A stretch of DNA of 64,000 nt, from assembly GCA_032430995.1 (NCBI GenBank), contig GCA_032430995.1_3952.1; one strand, given 5' to 3'. The position numbers and the translations under genes are program-made. The notes below the pieces were generated by a model. It did no database searches and was not told where the DNA came from. It was given only the letters and a program-made list of their open reading frames with translations. This DNA is from a phage. Positions 42,468 through 54,930 of the stretch are shown piece after piece. How positions within the stretch are numbered: the stretch's first letter is position 1; each line of letters begins with the position of its first letter.

Positions 42468-47851
<5,384 letters not shown>

Positions 47852-49323: not shown

Positions 49324-50178
49324 ATGTTTGAAAAGATTGATAGTGTTTATTATAAAACACTTGATGAAAGGACTGTAACACAGTTTAAAGATAAATTTAT
49401 CTATACAAGTATCTTGAAAGCAATCACTGATGAGCTACAAACACTAGAGGATGTTTGCTGGCAGATGCACACAGAGAGAAATATCAGGACGTCAGTAGGT
49501 CAACAACTTGATAATATTGGCTCACTGATTAAAGTTCCTAGACCTTTAGGTGCTGATGATGAAACATACAGAGCTATGCTTTATATCCAAATCTTCCTAA
49601 GACGTTCTGATACTACTCCAACATTCTTGCAAAAAGCAATTATGACATTGTATGGTGCAACTTTCTCTCAGATTTTTGAGCATATTACTCCTAAGACTGG
49701 TGGTATCGTTATCCGTATTAATACTAGAAAAAGCGTTCTTGATGCTGCATATACACTGTCAAAGATTTCTGCAACAACCACTGGTTCCGCTGTTATCTTA
49801 AGAGATGTTACTTTAAATGGGACTGCTTGGACACCTGTAGAGGTTGCTGATTCATCACTTGCTATTGTTGATGATAAAGAGAACTGGTTTGTAACTGATG
49901 CTAACAGAGGTCTGGTCACAAATAACACTGGTGGCTCTCTGGAGTCCAACCTAGTAGGGAGTCTTGCAGATGCTGGTGTTATTGATGGTTACTTTAAGGT
50001 TGACAGAACAGCAAACTCACAGAGCGATGATTATATGACTGTAGATAGGTCTAATAAGAGTGGTTATTTCATCGTTGGTAAAGAAGCTATTGCAGGTGGT
50101 GCATACGGAATCATGGCTGAGGTTGCACAAATTGTCAAAGGCAGAAAAGATAAATCACAACAAGAAGGAAATTCTTAA
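49324..50178 (+). CDS. putative baseplate/tail fiber base protein
   Basis: 284 aa; positional inference. Confidence 0.3.
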
Positions 50179-50480
50179 TGGCAGTTCTAAATTGGTCTAC
50201 AAACGAAGTAGATACTGATGGTAATCAGTTAAAAGTTTTACCACCACCGGAAGTTCAAGAGACAGGTCTTTTAAAGGGTGAGCCTATGGGTAGACAGTGG
50301 TTCAACTATATTATCAACTACCTGCTGAATAAAGTAAATGGCACTGTTGGTGAAGTTCGTTCATATGCAACTGAGCAACCAGATTTAGTGGCTAATGGCT
50401 GGAACCTCATTAAGTCTGAGACAGGGACTGCATCAACAAGTACAAGAAACCTTTACACATATGAATATGTAGGAGCTTAA
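50178..50480 (+). CDS. hypothetical tail protein
   Basis: 100-aa ORF. Confidence 0.4.
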
Positions 50481-50482
50481 TA

Positions 50483-51658
50483 ATGGCAGTAGGTGAAATT
50501 CAAATTAGTGCCTTGCCACAAGCGGCCTTACCAATTGATTTGAGTGATATCTTCCACCTTAAGCAAGGTGTTGAGGATAAAAGATGTACGCTTGAGCAGT
50601 TGTTAGCACCTCACGCATCTCTGAGGAATAATCCTCATGGTGTAACTAAATCACAAGTGGGTCTTGATAATGTTATTAACTCTCTTCAATTAGTTGCAAC
50701 TAATAACTTGTCAGACATTGTGAATGTTGCTGAGGCAAGAGCAAATCTACAAATTATGTCGTCAGAGGAAGTGAATAACTTAATTCAGCAACATATTGAC
50801 GACAAAAGTAACCCACACAATACAACGAAAGCACAGGTTGGTTTAAGTAATGTTCAGAACTGGACAACATCTAATCTGTACAATGAAGATGCTGATAAGT
50901 ATGCTACAGCGAGAGCAGTGAATAACTTATACAAAGCTATCCAAGCATCATATCCAGTGGGGACTATTCATCTGTCTGTTAACTCTGCTAACCCATCCAC
51001 TTACTTGCTTTGTGGTGGCACTTGGGAGTTAGTTTCTAAAGGTAGGGCACTAGTTGGTTATGATACAGATTCTAGACCTGTTGGTTCAATGTTTGGTTCT
51101 CAGACTGTAGCATTAACAAATAATAATTTACCAGCACATACTCACTCTATCTACCTAACAGGTGGTGGTCATACACACTCTGCAAGTGTATCTATCTCTA
51201 GTTTTGATTATGGTTCAAAAAGCACATCAACTTTTGATTACGGTACAAAAACGACTAATAGTGCTGGTGCTCACACTCACACGTTTAGTGGCACAACAAG
51301 TAATGCTGGTAACCACAACCATAGAGTTCCTATGAGGGGTAATGATAGGGGTGGCACAAATGCTATTACTGCATCTGCTGATGCTGGTGTTGGTAATGCT
51401 ATGTATACTGATTTAGCTGGTGCTCACACCCATAGCTTCTCAGGTACAACTGCATCATCTGGTGCTCATAGTCATACTGTCGCAATTGGTGCTCACAGCC
51501 ACACTGTTAATATTGGTTCGCACAGTCATACAGGCACTGTTACTGTTTCTAGCTCTGAGCATACACACTCAGGGACAACTGGTTCTGTTGGTGGTGGTCA
51601 AGCATTCAGTGTTGAGCAGCCATCTTTTGTAGTGTATGTGTGGCAGAGAACAGCTTAA
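50483..51658 (+). CDS. tail fiber protein with His-x-His repeat tip
   Basis: N-terminal NPHGVTKSQVGLDNV / NPHNTTKAQVGLSNV repeats; C-terminal AHTHSFSG, AHSHTVAIGAHSHTVNIGSHSHTG. Confidence 0.6.
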   Translation: MAVGEIQISALPQAALPIDLSDIFHLKQGVEDKRCTLEQLLAPHASLRNNPHGVTKSQVGLDNVINSLQLVATNNLSDIVNVAEARANLQIMSSEEVNNLIQQHIDDKSNPHNTTKAQVGLSNVQNWTTSNLYNEDADKYATARAVNNLYKAIQASYPVGTIHLSVNSANPSTYLLCGGTWELVSKGRALVGYDTDSRPVGSMFGSQTVALTNNNLPAHTHSIYLTGGGHTHSASVSISSFDYGSKSTSTFDYGTKTTNSAGAHTHTFSGTTSNAGNHNHRVPMRGNDRGGTNAITASADAGVGNAMYTDLAGAHTHSFSGTTASSGAHSHTVAIGAHSHTVNIGSHSHTGTVTVSSSEHTHSGTTGSVGGGQAFSVEQPSFVVYVWQRTA

Positions 51659-51668
51659 TTTCTTTACA

Positions 51669-51688
51669 GGGGCTTTATAGCCCCTTTT
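51669..51688 (+). terminator. rho-independent terminator
   Basis: GGGGCTTTATAGCCCC hairpin plus T4. Confidence 0.55.
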
Positions 51689-51704
51689 AAGAGGAAAACT
51701 TATA

Positions 51705-54245
51705 ATGGCAGATTACAAATTGAGTCAATTAAACTCAATCGACACAATTCGTTCAGAAGACCTATTGCACATCAGAGTTAAGAAAAGACCTGAAATGTTG
51801 GGTGATGAAGACCGTAGAATGACCTATCAAGACTTCTTAGCTTCCTTCAAACTAGAAAGGTTTGTTCAGATTGCTGGAAGCACTATGACTGGGGATTTAG
51901 GTATTGTCAAGTTACTTTACGGTGGAAAGTCTGTATTTGACCCTACAGGCTCTTCTGAGATTACTATTGGGGATATTTTAAAGACTTTTAAAATTAACGC
52001 AAACGGTCTTAAACTAACTATTGCAGATGCTTCAAGGTCAGCAACTGTTTATCATACTCTGAATAAGCCAAGTCCTAATGAGCTTGGTATGAGGACTAAT
52101 GAAGAGAATGATGCAAGATACGCAAGACTTGCTATCACAAACACATTCTCTGGAACTCAAAATATTCAAGGTGATGCTAACTTACTTCGCCTTAGAAACC
52201 AAAATGCAAATAATGCACAATATATTGAAGGTGTAAACCTAGATGGTTCGGCTAGATGGTGGGTTGGTATTGGTAGTAATGGCTCTGACGAAGTAAAGCT
52301 GTACAATAACAAATACAACTCAGCCTTGACTGTTGCAAGTAATGTCTCTGTTAATAAGTCTTTAGCAATCACTGGTCAAGTTCAACCTTCAGATTTCTCT
52401 AACTTAGATGCTAGATACTTCACTCAGACAGTTGCTAATCAGAGATTTGCACAGTTAGCTGCTAATAATAATTTCACGGGCACTAACACGTTTAGTAGAA
52501 ATCTAACTATCATTAGTGACAGTGCTGCTTTAAGGTTGAAAAATGCAACAGCTAGCTCACTATTCATTCAGGGTGTTGACTCTCAGAACACTAACAGGTG
52601 GTATGTAGGGAACGGGGATAACACAGCCTCTGTGCTGCTACACAACTATGTACACGGTTCAAATATCAGACTTGATAATGGCTATATCTCAGTCAACCAG
52701 AACTTCAGAATCACTGGTCAAGTTCAACCTTCGGATTGGACTAATATTGATTCTAGATATATTCCGGCAGCCACATTAAGTACAATTGCAAGAACCAATG
52801 CTGCTAACACATTCTCTGCACAACAGGTTATCAACTCTGATGGTGAAGCTCTTGCGTTAAAAGCAAAAACTGCATCGTCATTATTTATTAGAGGGAAGGC
52901 TGTTGATGGAACCAGCAAGTGGTATATCGGTAATGGTGATGCCAGTGATATCTTAAACCTGTATAACTACAAGACAGGTAAAGGGCTTAACATTGGTTCA
53001 GTATTTGAAATGAATGCAACTTTAGCAATCACTGGTCAAGTTCAACCTTCAGATTTCTCTAACTTAGATGCTAGATATTTTACTCAAAGTGCTAGTGATA
53101 GCAGATACCTGAGAATCAGAAGCACCAGTTTTAATTTAGGAAACGATGAAAAGTGGGCTAAAATCGCTACTGTTGTAATGCCACAATCAACATCTACAGC
53201 AGTTATTGAGGTTTTTGGAGGTGCTGGTTTTAATGCGAATAACCCATACCAATCAGGCAAGTGTGAAATTGTTTTACGAACATCAAATAATAATCCAAAG
53301 GATTTAAATGCTGTAGCTTGGAGAACAGCAGATAATGCCCTCATCACGGATATTGGTTACGTTAACACTTCTGGTGACACTTATGATATTTACTGTAAGG
53401 TTGGAGGCTACCAAAATTCTACGGTATCTAGGGTTCAATCTTCTAGTAATGCAAGTGTACAGTTGTTTGAAGTCCCACAGACATTTGATGATGCTCCACA
53501 AGGTATTGTGAAGGGTACAATTGCAAAATACTACACAAGTTTGCAAAAACCAACCCCTTCAGATATTGGTGCATACACTAAAGCAGAAACTGACCAGAAG
53601 ATTGCAGAAGCAATTAGTGACTCTACAGACCTGAATAAAATCTATCCAGTAGGTATTGTAACGTGGTTTAACAGTAATGTTAACCCTAATACAGCACTTC
53701 CTGGGTTAACTTGGACGTACCTGAATAATGGTGTTGGTAGAACTATTAGAATTGCAGCAGCAAACGGTTCAGATGTTGCTACAACTGGTGGTTCAGACTC
53801 TGTAACGTTATCTGTTGGTAACTTACCTTCACATACACACAGTTTCTCTGCTACCACTTCATCATTTGATTATGGTACTAAGACTTCTAGCACAACTGGT
53901 AACCATAACCACAACAGAGGTACTATGGAGATTACTGGTTCATTTGGTTACTTCAGGAGTGACACTAGCAGCTTCTACACAGCAAGTGGTGCATTCCACC
54001 TCGGTAGTCAGGCAGGTTCTAAAGGGTATACTGGTAATAACTTTACTAATGGTATCCCTGTCAACTTCAACGCATCAAGAAACTGGTCTGGTGTAACGAA
54101 TACAACAGGTAACCACAGCCACACTGTTGGTATTGGTGCTCACAGCCACACAGTTAGTGGTAACACTGGTGGTACTGGTTCTGGTTCAGCATTCAGTGTT
54201 ACTAACCAGTTCTATAAGTTAATGGCTTGGGTAAGAACTGCTTAA
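51705..54245 (+). CDS. long tail fiber protein with internal triplicated segment and His-x-His tip
   Basis: 846 aa; AITGQVQPSD(F/W)(S/T)N(L/I)D(A/S)RY repeated three times; C-terminus GNHSHTVGIGAHSHTVSG paralogous to previous fiber. Confidence 0.6.
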   Translation: MADYKLSQLNSIDTIRSEDLLHIRVKKRPEMLGDEDRRMTYQDFLASFKLERFVQIAGSTMTGDLGIVKLLYGGKSVFDPTGSSEITIGDILKTFKINANGLKLTIADASRSATVYHTLNKPSPNELGMRTNEENDARYARLAITNTFSGTQNIQGDANLLRLRNQNANNAQYIEGVNLDGSARWWVGIGSNGSDEVKLYNNKYNSALTVASNVSVNKSLAITGQVQPSDFSNLDARYFTQTVANQRFAQLAANNNFTGTNTFSRNLTIISDSAALRLKNATASSLFIQGVDSQNTNRWYVGNGDNTASVLLHNYVHGSNIRLDNGYISVNQNFRITGQVQPSDWTNIDSRYIPAATLSTIARTNAANTFSAQQVINSDGEALALKAKTASSLFIRGKAVDGTSKWYIGNGDASDILNLYNYKTGKGLNIGSVFEMNATLAITGQVQPSDFSNLDARYFTQSASDSRYLRIRSTSFNLGNDEKWAKIATVVMPQSTSTAVIEVFGGAGFNANNPYQSGKCEIVLRTSNNNPKDLNAVAWRTADNALITDIGYVNTSGDTYDIYCKVGGYQNSTVSRVQSSSNASVQLFEVPQTFDDAPQGIVKGTIAKYYTSLQKPTPSDIGAYTKAETDQKIAEAISDSTDLNKIYPVGIVTWFNSNVNPNTALPGLTWTYLNNGVGRTIRIAAANGSDVATTGGSDSVTLSVGNLPSHTHSFSATTSSFDYGTKTSSTTGNHNHNRGTMEITGSFGYFRSDTSSFYTASGAFHLGSQAGSKGYTGNNFTNGIPVNFNASRNWSGVTNTTGNHSHTVGIGAHSHTVSGNTGGTGSGSAFSVTNQFYKLMAWVRTA

Positions 54246-54324: not shown

Positions 54325-54519
54325 ATGCCTACAATCCTAGCAATTCTTCTAAAAAATCTAGGTAGCTTCTTCTGGAAACTCATTTTATCCCTTCTAAGTG
54401 AATACATGATTGAGAAAGTGTTCTTTAAGCTTGCAAGATACCTTGCGAGTAAAACAGATACACCTATTGATGATGAGTTCGTAGATAACTTAGAAAAAGC
54501 TTTTAAGGGGGAGAAATAA
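54325..54519 (+). CDS. small membrane protein
   Basis: 64 aa with hydrophobic N-terminal half. Confidence 0.4.
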   Translation: MPTILAILLKNLGSFFWKLILSLLSEYMIEKVFFKLARYLASKTDTPIDDEFVDNLEKAFKGEK

Positions 54520-54891
54520 ATGAAGTGGCTAGAGGAAGCTTTTAAAAATAATATTGGTGCAATTGTAGTTGGTATTTTTAGTGTTATTGGGATGTATACC
54601 ACTATGCAAGTCTCAAGTGGTAAGCAGGAAGTGTCTGTCACAACAAAGTTACAGCAGCTAGATAATTATTCCAAAAGTAACTATTCAGCTATTCGTGATT
54701 TACAGTCTGACATGAGATTGATTCAGCTAGGGATGGAGAACCAGAAAGTTCAGTTAGAGAATGTTAAGGGTGAAAACGCAAAACTTACCAAAACCCTTGA
54801 TAAATTCTCTGACAGTGTGAACAATCTGGCTCAATCAGTATCAGCCTTGCAAGCTATTACTGAAAAGAACACAAAGAATACTGAAAAATAA
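54520..54891 (+). CDS. membrane protein with coiled-coil region
   Basis: 123 aa; TM segment IGAIVVGIFSVIGMY then heptad-like region. Confidence 0.45.
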   Translation: MKWLEEAFKNNIGAIVVGIFSVIGMYTTMQVSSGKQEVSVTTKLQQLDNYSKSNYSAIRDLQSDMRLIQLGMENQKVQLENVKGENAKLTKTLDKFSDSVNNLAQSVSALQAITEKNTKNTEK

Positions 54892-54930
54892 AATTTAAGG
54901 CTCCCGTAAAAAGGAGCCTTTTTTGTTTTT
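54890..54930. terminator. bidirectional terminator between convergent fiber-side and thyA-side units
   Basis: A-run, GGCTCC-CGTAAAAA-GGAGCC hairpin, T-run. Confidence 0.65.

What the first reader, a model, noticed from the sequence alone, without database searches (positions are those of the whole stretch)
50483..54245. Two paralogous tail fibers with His-x-His metal-binding-type repeats and an internally triplicated segment
Both fibers end in related tips rich in H-x-H (AHTHSFSG, GNHNHR, AHSHTVAIGAHSHTVNIGSHSHTG; GNHSHTVGIGAHSHTVSG) with a shared C-terminal tail (AFSV ... W(Q/V)RTA), reminiscent of the metal-coordinating HxH repeats of T4-type fiber tips. The long fiber carries three copies of AITGQVQPSD(F/W)(S/T)N(L/I)D(A/S)RY, suggesting modular expansion. 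Two receptor-binding tips sharing a scaffold imply dual receptor specificity or recent duplication.
Basis: partly seen in the sequence, partly recalled or inferred. Interest (0 to 1): 0.45.

Follow-up and report, generated by a model that had tools for sequence, protein, structure and literature searches.

The report
Felix O1-type phage's two tail fibers

Summary
ORFs 50483-51658 (391 aa) and 51705-54245 (846 aa) carry 9 and 4 H-x-H motifs (1.4 and 0.18 expected by shuffling). The long one has three repeat units.

The window is a Felixounavirus, 93-96% identical in DNA to wV8, D4 and O157 typing phages. The short fiber matches the crystal structure of the T4 gp37 tip (2XGF) at E=8e-27, with near-identical HxH spacing. 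The two fiber families align at 99.9% probability (hhalign).

Cryo-EM papers on relatives Bas63 and Sf14 (2025) already describe both fibers in the virion with a gp37-like collar, HxH needle and head. The Felix O1 genome paper (2010) had already noted the gp37 similarity.

- The chain doubles back, so the receptor-binding head lies between the HxH groups (short aa ~281-314, long aa ~737-803), not at the C-terminus.
- The duplication is ancient (31% identity).
- The triplicated motif marks the conserved boundaries of three old PF20744 domains (43-47% identical).

One addition: these boundaries act as recombination joints. Unit interiors, middle domain and head occur as discrete alleles that assort independently among relatives.

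Verdict: already known, low interest.

The parts
50178..50480 (+). 100-aa protein just upstream of the fibers; probably the long-fiber platform (equivalent of Bas63 gp25, T4 gp9-like)
   Evidence: phrog_4141, E=1.5e-60. It sits between the 284-aa wedge protein and the short fiber, as in wV8 and as described for Bas63 (PMC12609058). The assignment is inferred from gene order and size, not tested.
50483..51658 (+). Short tail fiber gene (391 aa); ortholog of Felix O1 gp76, wV8 gp82, Sf14 gp52 and Bas63 gp26
   Evidence: ORF; phrog_2097 8.7e-139; 99.2% aa identity to phage KEP1 and 98.5% to O157 typing phage 12; same position as wV8 gene 82.
50483..50617 (+). Short fiber N-terminal baseplate-binding region (aa 1-45) with the motif DIFHL...EDKRCT, shared with the long fiber (DLLHI...EDRRMT)
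   Evidence: Pairwise alignment of the N-termini. The same ED(K/R)(K/R)(C/M)T motif is noted for Sf14 gp52/gp53 (PMC11821841). Bas63 cryo-EM shows a shared fold (PMC12609058).
50630..50854 (+). Two copies of NPHxxTKxQVGLxNV in the short-fiber shaft (50630-50674 and 50810-50854)
   Evidence: Regex hits. The shaft matches many tail-fiber PHROGs. A nearby shaft segment, profile positions 70-96, matches PDB 9zd7 'short tail fiber gp92'.
50942..51136 (+). Short fiber collar domain (aa ~154-218; the Pfam match runs on to aa 276)
   Evidence: Pfam Gp10_C 2.9e-18, above the curated cut-off. Aligns to the collar of T4 gp37 (2XGF) and to T4 gp10. Best-predicted part of the AF2 monomer, pLDDT ~87.
51137..51322 (+). 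Short fiber ascending needle strand with 4 HxH (aa 219, 230, 264, 278)
   Evidence: Spacing 11, 34, 14 against T4 gp37 32, 14. H219, H230 and H232 are invariant in 40 homologs.
51323..51424 (+). Short fiber head (aa ~281-314): the hairpin turn and inferred receptor-binding tip
   Evidence: 37-residue HxH-to-HxH gap, identical to T4 gp37 929 to 966. Most variable part of the gene: 42-50% DNA identity to Salmonella phages against 95-100% to O157 phages.
51425..51574 (+). Short fiber descending needle strand with 5 HxH (aa 315, 329, 338, 347, 360)
   Evidence: Spacing 14, 9, 9, 13 against T4 14, 9, 9; aligned on 2XGF.
51575..51655 (+). Short fiber C-terminal tail (GGGQAFSVEQPSFVVYVWQRTA), which by homology returns to the collar
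   Evidence: Aligns with the T4 gp37 C-terminus ...IAFNYIVRLA. Q379, S381, Y385, W387 and R389 are invariant in 40 homologs.
51668..51687 (+). GC-rich hairpin GGGGCTTTATAGCCCC followed by TTTT in the 46-nt spacer between the two fiber genes
   Evidence: Sequence. The spacer folds at -16.8 kcal/mol, z=-1.7. The wV8 record annotates the equivalent site as a Rho-independent terminator. It was not picked up by the consensus scan, having only 4 T.
51705..54245 (+). Long tail fiber gene (846 aa); ortholog of Felix O1 gp77, wV8 gp83, Sf14 gp53 and Bas63 gp27
   Evidence: ORF; phrog_4277 E=0 over the full length; 99% identity to P0121 and 83-84% to the O157 typing-phage (wV8-type) proteins.
51705..52076 (+). 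Long fiber N-terminal region (aa 1-124): baseplate-binding domain plus a first beta domain
   Evidence: At least 90% identical to the window in 119 of 120 homolog clusters; beta strands at aa 92-116 in the AF2 model, at low confidence.
52077..53078 (+). Three tandem PF20744 (gp37_trimer) units: U1 52077-52418, U2 52419-52760, U3 52761-53078
   Evidence: Pfam PF20744, 3 stretches, 3.4e-70. Units are 43-47% aa and 52-58% nt identical. U2 matches the T7 gp17 C-terminal structure 4A0T at 1e-6. pLDDT 70-88. Fold hits to T7 gp17 and the T4 gp34 rod.
52360..52426 (+). Unit-boundary linker, copy 1 of the 67-nt direct repeat (encodes LAITGQVQPSDFSNLDARYFTQ)
   Evidence: A mosaic breakpoint against most relatives falls at about 52403-52462.
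52702..52768 (+). Unit-boundary linker, copy 2 (70% identical to copy 1)
   Evidence: Island of 82-92% identity between two ~50% blocks in relatives. Left arm of the junction in the unit-deletion variant P0154.
53020..53086 (+). Unit-boundary linker, copy 3 (97% identical to copy 1, 660 nt downstream)
   Evidence: Identity to wV8 and others recovers here. The alternative middle modules diverge from aa ~470-474.
53127..53522 (+). Long fiber middle beta domain (aa ~475-606), an exchangeable cassette
   Evidence: No Pfam match. 40-48% identical to an internal segment of T2/K3-type T-even gp37. pLDDT 70-85, all-beta. Replaced by a shorter PF12604 (gp37_C) module in ~785-793-aa homologs such as P0181, P0228 and phage MET-P1-301.
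53634..53831 (+). Long fiber collar domain (aa ~644-709)
   Evidence: Pfam Gp10_C 7.7e-5, 24.1 bits, below the 27-bit cut-off. It aligns with the short fiber collar and is at least 90% identical in all 120 homologs.
53832..53912 (+). Long fiber ascending needle strand with 2 HxH (aa 710, 734)
   Evidence: H710, H712, H734 and H736 are invariant.
53913..54113 (+). Long fiber enlarged head (aa ~737-803, 67 aa), the 'O157/Shigella-type' allele; inferred receptor-binding tip
   Evidence: 70-residue HxH gap. The positions of T4's HxH 929 and 966 are occupied by GSFGYF and NASRNW. Same head in wV8-type typing phages and HY02; Salmonella phages have a 30-aa head with 3+3 or 2+2 HxH. Bimodal identity distribution.
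54114..54242 (+). Long fiber descending needle strand with 2 HxH (aa 804, 813) and C-terminal tail (SGSAFSVTNQFYKLMAWVRTA)
   Evidence: The last 36 residues are about 96-98% conserved across 120 homologs.

Best explanation
The two genes encode the short and long side tail fibers of a wV8-like Felixounavirus (Ounavirinae). By homology and by cryo-EM of relatives, each protein forms a homotrimer. Its N-terminus anchors it to the baseplate: the short fiber on the large wedge protein, the long fiber on a small platform protein. Each ends in a T4 gp37-type receptor-binding module. After a collar domain, the chain runs outward as a beta strand studded with HxH, turns in a small head domain, and runs back with more HxH. 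Its C-terminus ends near the collar. In the trimer the six strands form a needle. Each HxH level contributes six histidines that coordinate one metal ion on the axis (Fe2+ in T4). This predicts nine metal sites in the short fiber and four in the long one. The head between the two HxH groups is the hypervariable, host-correlated part and is the likely receptor contact. The genus is reported to use LPS, not protein receptors. The long fiber differs by an inserted rod: an N-terminal beta domain, three PF20744 (T7 gp17 'pyramid' / T4 gp34 rod-like) units, and a T2/K3 gp37-like domain. Conserved linkers join these parts, and the 'triplicated' motif is three of those linkers. The linkers serve as homologous-recombination joints at which unit interiors, middle domain and head are swapped between phages. 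Shown here: ORFs, motifs, homologies, mosaic pattern. Taken from papers on relatives: trimer state, virion location, hairpin topology. Inferred: metal binding, receptor contact at the heads, roles of the two fibers.
For: Identity of the phage and genes: 93-96% DNA identity to wV8, D4 and O157 typing phages, with both genes annotated as tail fibers. gp37-type tip: phmmer to 2XGF gives E=8e-27 for the short fiber and 6.5e-7, or 9.5e-18 with a profile, for the long fiber. HxH aligns on HxH, and spacings are 34,14,37,14,9,9 against T4's 32,14,37,14,9,9. Collar: Gp10_C 2.9e-18. Paralogy: E=1e-15 and hhalign 99.9%, E=4.9e-31. His conservation: HxH histidines are invariant or nearly so in both families. 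Hairpin topology is supported by co-variation: long-fiber tips occur as 3+3 or 2+2 HxH, and Salmonella phages SPJ41/D1-2 differ from SPT-1 by loss of one ascending and one descending 14-aa rung together. Head as specificity determinant: it is the most variable segment in both genes and tracks host, with the O157/Shigella type distinct from the Salmonella types. Virion presence and architecture in relatives: PMC12609058 (Bas63), PMC11821841 (Sf14), PMC3185647 (Felix O1 mass spectrometry), PMC2674420 (wV8 mass spectrometry). Cassette exchange: each segment of the window's long fiber has a different nearest relative (U2 JN01/DaR-2019a, U3 D4/MET-P1-301, middle ECOH1, head wV8/MET-P1-301), with switches at the linkers. 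Identity is bimodal, there are 11, 16 and 22 allele classes for U1-U3, 67 combinations occur among 121 sequences, and all four U2 x U3 combinations are present.
Against: No trimer model or metal data exist for this phage. The AF2 monomer models are poor in the needle (pLDDT below 50), and the short-fiber model gave no significant fold match. The long fiber's Gp10_C hit is below Pfam's cut-off. Fiber densities in Bas63 and Sf14 were interpreted with flexibly fitted AlphaFold models, and no Felixounavirus fiber chain is in the PDB sequence set, so even in relatives the metal sites are inferred. Which fiber binds what, and in which order, has not been determined experimentally (PMC8594841, PMC12609058). 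Bas63 is reported with 7 and 6 di-His motifs, not 9 and 4. Homolog counts show this is allelic variation, but I could not align Bas63 itself.
Confidence: 0.9

Rival explanations
1. The two tips result from a recent duplication within this phage lineage, so the second fiber is a young, possibly redundant copy.
For: The tips share the collar, HxH motifs and C-terminal tail. Short DNA repeats link the two genes at 63-78% identity (families D2-D4).
Against: Only 31% protein identity. Each gene has its own orthologous family; short-fiber orthologs occur at 44-47% identity in Erwinia, Hafnia, Pectobacterium and Yersinia phages. Both fibers are also present in the related phage Sf14 (PMC11821841). 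The duplication therefore predates the diversification of these phages.
Confidence: 0.02
2. The HxH runs are compositionally biased Gly/Ser/Thr/His low-complexity sequence with no metal-binding role.
For: The region is rich in G, S, T and H. No metal data exist for this phage. AF2 monomers are unstructured there.
Against: Residue-by-residue homology to the iron-containing needle of 2XGF, with matching spacing. Histidines are invariant across families while neighbours vary. Ascending and descending HxH are gained and lost in pairs. Counts far exceed shuffles.
Confidence: 0.03
3. The short fiber is not a receptor-binding fiber. It is a structural brace or trigger element that docks on the sheath, and only the long fiber recognises the host.
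For: In Bas63 the short fiber's head sits between sheath domains in the extended state and stays fully occupied (PMC12609058). Its collar resembles T4 gp10, a baseplate lever protein. In Felix O1 virion mass spectrometry it was detected at only 9% coverage (PMC3185647).
Against: It has a complete gp37-type receptor module whose head is its most variable segment and differs between E. coli O157 and Salmonella phages, as expected for a part under host selection. The Bas63 authors suggest it acts like T4 short fibers in a second binding step (PMC12609058).
Confidence: 0.12
4. The variability of the long-fiber rod units reflects relaxed constraint and gradual mutation, not cassette exchange.
For: The Bas63 paper lists mutation tolerance as one of three possible explanations (PMC12609058).
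Against: Identity to the window is bimodal (20-40% or 80-100%) with almost nothing in between. Adjacent segments have different nearest relatives, and all four allele combinations occur for U2 x U3. Breakpoints coincide with conserved linkers.
Confidence: 0.1

Closest known systems
[quoted passage not shown] 2010, as cited in PMC12609058)
   Same: Collar domain, HxH motifs on an outgoing and a returning strand with the same 14/9/9 spacing and the same 37-residue head loop (short fiber), FDYGTK motif, and a C-terminal R-x-A.
   Different: The short fiber has two extra collar-proximal HxH levels, 9 against 7. The long fiber has only 4, with the head enlarged to 67 aa where T4 has two more HxH. 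No gp38, gp34, gp35 or gp36 homologs are in the window. Each fiber is a single short polypeptide attached directly to the baseplate, not the distal quarter of a four-protein fiber.
Bas63 (JohannRWettstein) short fiber gp26 and long fiber gp27, cryo-EM (PMC12609058)
   Same: Same genus, same gene order (489-aa wedge, ~285-aa wedge, platform, short fiber, long fiber). The paper describes the same domain plan: N-terminal baseplate-binding domain; the long fiber with five beta domains; both fibers with collar, HxH needle and head.
   Different: Bas63 is reported with 7 and 6 di-His motifs; this phage has 9 and 4. My homolog counts show both numbers are common alleles: 9 in 53 of 71 short-fiber clusters (the 4+5 arrangement in 36), and 4 in 76 of 120 long-fiber clusters against 6 in 41. 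I did not align the Bas63 sequences directly because I could not find the accession.
Sf14 gp52 (391 aa) and gp53 (792 aa) (PMC11821841)
   Same: The short fiber has the same length. The shared N-terminal motif ED(K/R)(K/R)(C/M)T is present here as EDKRCT and EDRRMT. T7 gp17-like domains and a gp37-like tip are noted in the paper.
   Different: Sf14 is a more distant relative whose long fiber is 54 aa shorter. The short fiber of its relative Sf16 is 75% identical to the window's.
Felix O1 gp76/gp77 and wV8 gp82/gp83 (PMC3185647, PMC2674420)
   Same: Direct orthologs. The similarity of both C-termini to T4 gp37 was already reported in 2010. The block-wise conserved and divergent pattern of the long fiber was reported in 2009.
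   Different: The window's long fiber differs from wV8 mainly in units 2-3 (48-76% DNA identity against 94-99% elsewhere) and the middle domain (~80%).
T7 gp17 C-terminal 'pyramid' domain (PDB 4A0T) and T4 gp34 rod (4UXG/5NXF)
   Same: The PF20744 units match T7 gp17 residues 368-442 by sequence (about 1e-6). The model matches both folds.
   Different: Three tandem copies here. No T7-type tip domain follows; the fiber continues into a gp37-type tip.
Recombination between conserved motifs in T-even gp37/gp38 adhesin genes (Tetart et al. 1998; recalled from my own knowledge, not checked here)
   Same: Conserved short sequence blocks flank hypervariable segments and allow swapping of specificity modules.
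   Different: Here the joints lie at the boundaries of rod domains as well as around the head. Whether the rod cassettes affect specificity is unknown.

Membership tests
T4 gp37-type receptor-binding tip (collar, needle, head; 2XGF) | Significant sequence homology to the solved tip across collar and needle | tested here: met
   Short fiber aa 145-362 against 2XGF 17-227, E=8.1e-27. Long fiber aa 704-825, E=6.5e-7; family profile 9.5e-18.
T4 gp37-type receptor-binding tip (collar, needle, head; 2XGF) | HxH motifs on both an ascending and a descending strand with gp37-like spacing | tested here: met
   Short 4+5 with spacing 34,14,37,14,9,9 against T4 32,14,37,14,9,9. Long 2+2 with spacing 24,70,9.
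T4 gp37-type receptor-binding tip (collar, needle, head; 2XGF) | Collar domain of the gp10/gp12/gp37 type before the needle | tested here: met
   Short fiber Gp10_C 67.6 bits, cut-off 27. The long fiber scores only 24.1 bits on its own but aligns to the short fiber's collar.
T4 gp37-type receptor-binding tip (collar, needle, head; 2XGF) | Homotrimer with a six-stranded needle and octahedral metal sites formed by six His per level | not testable with these tools
   Only monomer AF2 was available. The needle has pLDDT below 50. Metal content needs experiment or a multimer model with ions.
T4 gp37-type receptor-binding tip (collar, needle, head; 2XGF) | Dedicated assembly chaperone gp38 encoded next to the fiber gene | tested here: not met
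   tblastn of T4 gp38 against the window finds nothing. The downstream ORFs have no chaperone family match. The Sf14 paper also reports no chaperone homologs (PMC11821841). This concerns T4's assembly pathway, not the fold, so it does not exclude membership of the structural family.
Felixounavirus short and long tail fibers (Felix O1 gp76/gp77) | Orthology by sequence and by position after the wedge and platform genes | tested here: met
   Short fiber 98.5-99.2% aa identity and long fiber 83-99% to named Felixounavirus proteins. Gene order identical to wV8.
Felixounavirus short and long tail fibers (Felix O1 gp76/gp77) | Both proteins are virion components | not testable with these tools
   Shown for relatives only: cryo-EM of Bas63 and Sf14; mass spectrometry of Felix O1 gp77 (31% coverage) and orf76 (9%); wV8 gp83 (PMC12609058, PMC11821841, PMC3185647, PMC2674420).
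Pfam PF20744 gp37_trimer repeat | Score above the curated cut-off, in tandem copies | tested here: met
   232.6 bits against a cut-off of 21.7, three stretches.

The most novel reading that the evidence does not exclude
The long fiber may be more than a rod with one adhesive tip. It may be a string of at least four independently assorting specificity cassettes: units 1-3, the middle domain and the head. These are exchanged between Escherichia, Shigella and Salmonella phages by recombination at conserved ~67-nt linker repeats. On this reading the rod domains contribute to host recognition, for example lateral contacts with O-antigen or LPS, or to evasion of a defence that targets the fiber. The Bas63 paper listed mutation tolerance, host recognition and defence escape as open possibilities and did not report cassette shuffling in the passages I read.
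Probability: 0.3. Interest if true: 0.45.

Novelty: already known. Interest (0 to 1): 0.13.

Why it matters
For the finding as stated there is little new. The two fibers, their gp37-like HxH tips and their presence in the virion are published for this genus. The practical value is in annotation and engineering. Many deposited Felixounavirus records still label these genes 'hypothetical protein'. The map given here (head at short-fiber aa 281-314 and long-fiber aa 737-803, linkers at 52360, 52702 and 53020) marks where host-range swaps could be made without breaking the needle. The discrete-allele, free-assortment pattern of the rod units narrows the explanations offered for their variability. 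It also suggests a direct test of whether the rod domains take part in host recognition.

Tried and rejected
1. AF2 monomer predictions of both fibers were tried. Mean pLDDT was 61 and 53, and the needles were unstructured, as expected for an intertwined trimer. They cannot confirm or refute the tip fold. Only the collar, the PF20744 units and the middle domain were usable.
2. Foldseek of the short-fiber model against the PDB gave no significant hit (best E=0.059, gp10 homologs).
3. A Pfam scan of the middle domain alone found nothing. It was identified through tblastn to T2/K3-type gp37 instead.
4. I could not obtain Bas63's accession. It is not in the paper's text and no supplements are held, so the 9/4 against 7/6 di-His difference rests on the paper's wording plus my homolog counts.
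5. The T4 gp37 tip paper (PMC2996694) is not held. Its content is cited through PMC12609058 and through the 2XGF alignment.
6. P0154, a 740-aa homolog lacking exactly unit 3 with the junction inside the linker, looked like proof of unit loss by linker recombination. It comes from a 6.7x coverage SPAdes contig with only ~29 nt shared at the junction, so assembly collapse cannot be excluded and I do not rely on it.
7. Recent duplication and chance or low-complexity origin of the HxH motifs were considered and rejected (see rivals).
8. The consensus terminator scan did not flag the hairpin in the inter-fiber spacer. It was found by reading and folding the spacer.

Full report
**Observation.** All quoted peptides are present verbatim. 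The short protein has 9 H-x-H motifs, at aa 219, 230, 264, 278, 315, 329, 338, 347 and 360. The long one has 4, at aa 710, 734, 804 and 813. Composition-preserving shuffles give means of 1.4 (max 6) and 0.18 (max 3), and no other ORF of 100 aa or more in the window has more than two. The motif ITGQVQPSD[FW][ST]N[LI]D[AS]RY occurs at aa 222, 336 and 442 of the long protein. It lies in a 67-nt direct DNA repeat at 52360, 52702 and 53020.

**What the locus is.** The 3.8-kb region is 93-96% identical in DNA to Escherichia phages D4, wV8, the O157 typing phages and MET-P1-301. It is about 82% identical to Salmonella Felixounaviruses, and both genes are annotated there as tail fibers. Gene order matches wV8: 489-aa Baseplate_J wedge, 284-aa baseplate protein, 100-aa protein, short fiber, long fiber, two small ORFs, then convergent td and frd. 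The short fiber is 99.2% identical to that of phage KEP1. The long fiber is 99% identical to a metagenomic cluster and 83-84% to the O157 typing-phage (wV8-type) proteins.

**Homology to the T4 tip.**
- The short fiber aa 145-362 aligns to the crystal structure of the T4 gp37 receptor-binding tip (2XGF) at E=8.1e-27, with HxH on HxH. Its collar also matches T4 gp10 and Pfam Gp10_C at 2.9e-18.
- The long fiber matches 2XGF at 6.5e-7, or 9.5e-18 with a family profile.
- Aligned with T4 gp37 fetched from NC_000866, the HxH spacings of the short fiber are 11, 34, 14, 37, 14, 9, 9, 13. T4's are 32, 14, 37, 14, 9, 9. The short fiber is therefore the T4 needle, including its 37-residue head loop, plus one extra level at each collar-proximal end.
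- In the long fiber the positions of T4's HxH 929 and 966 are occupied by GSFGYF and NASRNW, and the last level is missing. That gives a short 2+2 needle with a 67-aa head.
- Both proteins end in R-T-A, like T4's R-L-A.
- The two fiber families are homologous over 220 columns (hhalign 99.9%, E=4.9e-31; BLASTP 31% identity, E=1e-15).

**What is already published.**
- The Felix O1 genome paper (PMC3185647, 2010) states that gp76 and gp77 resemble T4 gp37 at their C-termini. It found gp77 (31% coverage) and orf76 (9%) in virions.
- The wV8 paper (PMC2674420, 2009) identified gp83 in virions. It described a long-fiber pattern of conserved blocks separated by dissimilar ones, with both termini conserved.
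- The Bas63 cryo-EM paper (PMC12609058, 2025) shows a 430-Å short fiber and a 630-Å long fiber in the virion. Both have a shared N-terminal baseplate-binding domain and a gp37-like collar, HxH needle and head, with the chain doubling back at the head. The long fiber has five beta domains resembling the T4 gp34 rod.
- The Sf14 paper (PMC11821841, 2025) reports the same two fibers (391 and 792 aa), T7 gp17-like domains, and no chaperone.

1. The shared C-terminal tail is not the physical tip. The head lies between the two HxH groups, at short fiber aa ~281-314 (nt 51323-51424) and long fiber aa ~737-803 (nt 53913-54113). These are the most variable segments.
2. The duplication is ancient. The paralogs are 31% identical, and short-fiber orthologs at 44-47% identity occur in Erwinia, Hafnia, Pectobacterium and Yersinia phages.
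3. The 'triplicated segment' is the conserved end of three PF20744 (gp37_trimer) domains (3.4e-70). They are only 43-47% identical in protein and 52-58% in DNA. They are related to the T7 gp17 C-terminal structure and fold-match T7 gp17 and T4 gp34. Nearly all 120 homolog clusters have three units, so this is not a recent expansion.
4. The N-termini are also related, through DIFHL...EDKRCT and DLLHI...EDRRMT. The long fiber is in effect the short-fiber plan with a rod inserted.

**Family survey.** Among 71 short-fiber clusters, nine HxH is the norm, and the 4+5 arrangement is the commonest (36 clusters). Among 120 long-fiber clusters, 74 have the window's type (2+2 HxH with a ~70-residue gap) and 41 have 3+3 with a 34-48-residue gap. 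Named examples show host association. O157 and Shigella phages carry the window's large head. Salmonella phages carry a 30-aa head with 3+3 HxH. SPJ41 and D1-2 have 2+2 through loss of one ascending and one descending 14-aa rung together. That paired change is what a hairpin needle predicts.

**Beyond the tip.** The long fiber's middle domain (aa ~475-606) has no Pfam match. It is 40-48% identical to an internal segment of T2/K3-type gp37. About 17 clusters, and phage MET-P1-301, replace it with a shorter PF12604 module.

**Added value: mosaic structure.**
- Sliding DNA identity against nine relatives shows that each segment of the window's long fiber has a different nearest relative:
  - unit 2 matches JN01 and Salmonella phage DaR-2019a at 83-95%, about 50% to the rest;
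  - unit 3 matches D4, MET-P1-301 and Mushroom;
  - the middle domain matches ECOH1 at 93-98%;
  - the head matches wV8 and MET-P1-301.
- The switches fall at the three 67-nt linkers and at the collar borders.
- Over 120 clusters the N-terminus and collar are at least 90% identical to the window in essentially all. Units 1-3 and the head are bimodal, at 20-40% or 80-100%.
- At 80% single linkage there are 11, 16 and 22 allele classes for units 1-3 and 67 combinations among 121 sequences. All four combinations occur for units 2 x 3.
- This favours cassette exchange at conserved linkers over gradual drift, one of the options left open in PMC12609058.
- Linker copies 1 and 3 are 97% identical over 67 nt although the units they close are about 55% identical.
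- One homolog (P0154) lacks exactly unit 3, with the junction inside the linker. It comes from a 6.7x coverage contig and may be an assembly artefact.

**Limits.**
- Trimer state, metal binding and receptor contact are inferred from T4 and from relatives.
- AF2 monomers were uninformative for the needle.
- No Felixounavirus fiber chain is in the PDB sequence set.
- No gp38-like chaperone is present in the window.
- Receptors of the two fibers are unknown. The genus is reported to use LPS (PMC8594841).

**Verdict.** This is a correct observation with a correct core interpretation, already described for the genus. Interest is low. The cassette-shuffling pattern of the rod is a modest extension worth a note.

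Noticed in passing
window 46810-47433 (+), HxH at aa 188-190 (nt 47371-47379): The 207-aa ORF four genes upstream of the fibers ends in ...[10 protein letters not shown]. It is probably the central baseplate spike: the Bas63 paper places an HxH at the same residues (H188/H190) of its spike protein and proposes that it binds iron. That would make it a third HxH protein in the window.
   Followed up: partly
window 51668-51687 (+): GC-rich hairpin GGGGCTTTATAGCCCC plus TTTT in the 46-nt spacer between the short and long fiber genes. wV8's record annotates it as a terminator, but the consensus scan missed it. It could lower long-fiber transcription relative to the short fiber.
   Followed up: partly
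window 54897-54920 (both strands): A symmetric hairpin (AAGGCTCC...GGAGCCTT) flanked by T-runs on both strands. It sits where the rightward structural genes meet the leftward td/frd block and looks like a bidirectional terminator. GC skew changes sign here.
   Followed up: no
window 54325-54519 and 54520-54891 (+): Two small ORFs follow the long fiber: 64 aa with a hydrophobic N-terminus (phrog_402), and 123 aa with a hydrophobic N-terminal stretch plus a probable coiled coil (phrog_4038, with a faint Rz-like spanin hit). Their function is unknown. They occupy the position where T4 has gp38 and the holin, and neither matches a known fiber chaperone.
   Followed up: partly
L011 3001-5223 (ENA ERZ1505402 NODE_674, protein P0154): A long-fiber homolog of 740 aa lacks exactly repeat unit 3, with the junction inside the ~29-nt stretch shared by linker copies 2 and 3. 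It is either a natural two-unit fiber or a repeat collapse in a 6.7x coverage assembly.
   Followed up: partly
L010 1523-3883 (phage MET-P1-301) and proteins P0181, P0225, P0228 and others: A second long-fiber architecture of about 785-793 aa exists. In it the middle beta domain (window aa 475-606) is replaced by a shorter PF12604 gp37_C module, while both flanks stay 68-97% identical.
   Followed up: partly
window 50630-50674 and 50810-50854 (+): The short-fiber shaft carries two copies of NPHxxTKxQVGLxNV, a short motif that also appears in many unrelated phage fiber families (several PHROG hits at aa ~100-131).
   Followed up: no
L003 1254-3860 (phage D4 record PP886228): In the D4 record the long-fiber CDS is annotated as starting 23 nt inside the short-fiber gene. 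This is an over-extended start compared with wV8, JN01, ECOH1 and this window. In several records one or both fiber genes are still labelled 'hypothetical protein'.
   Followed up: no
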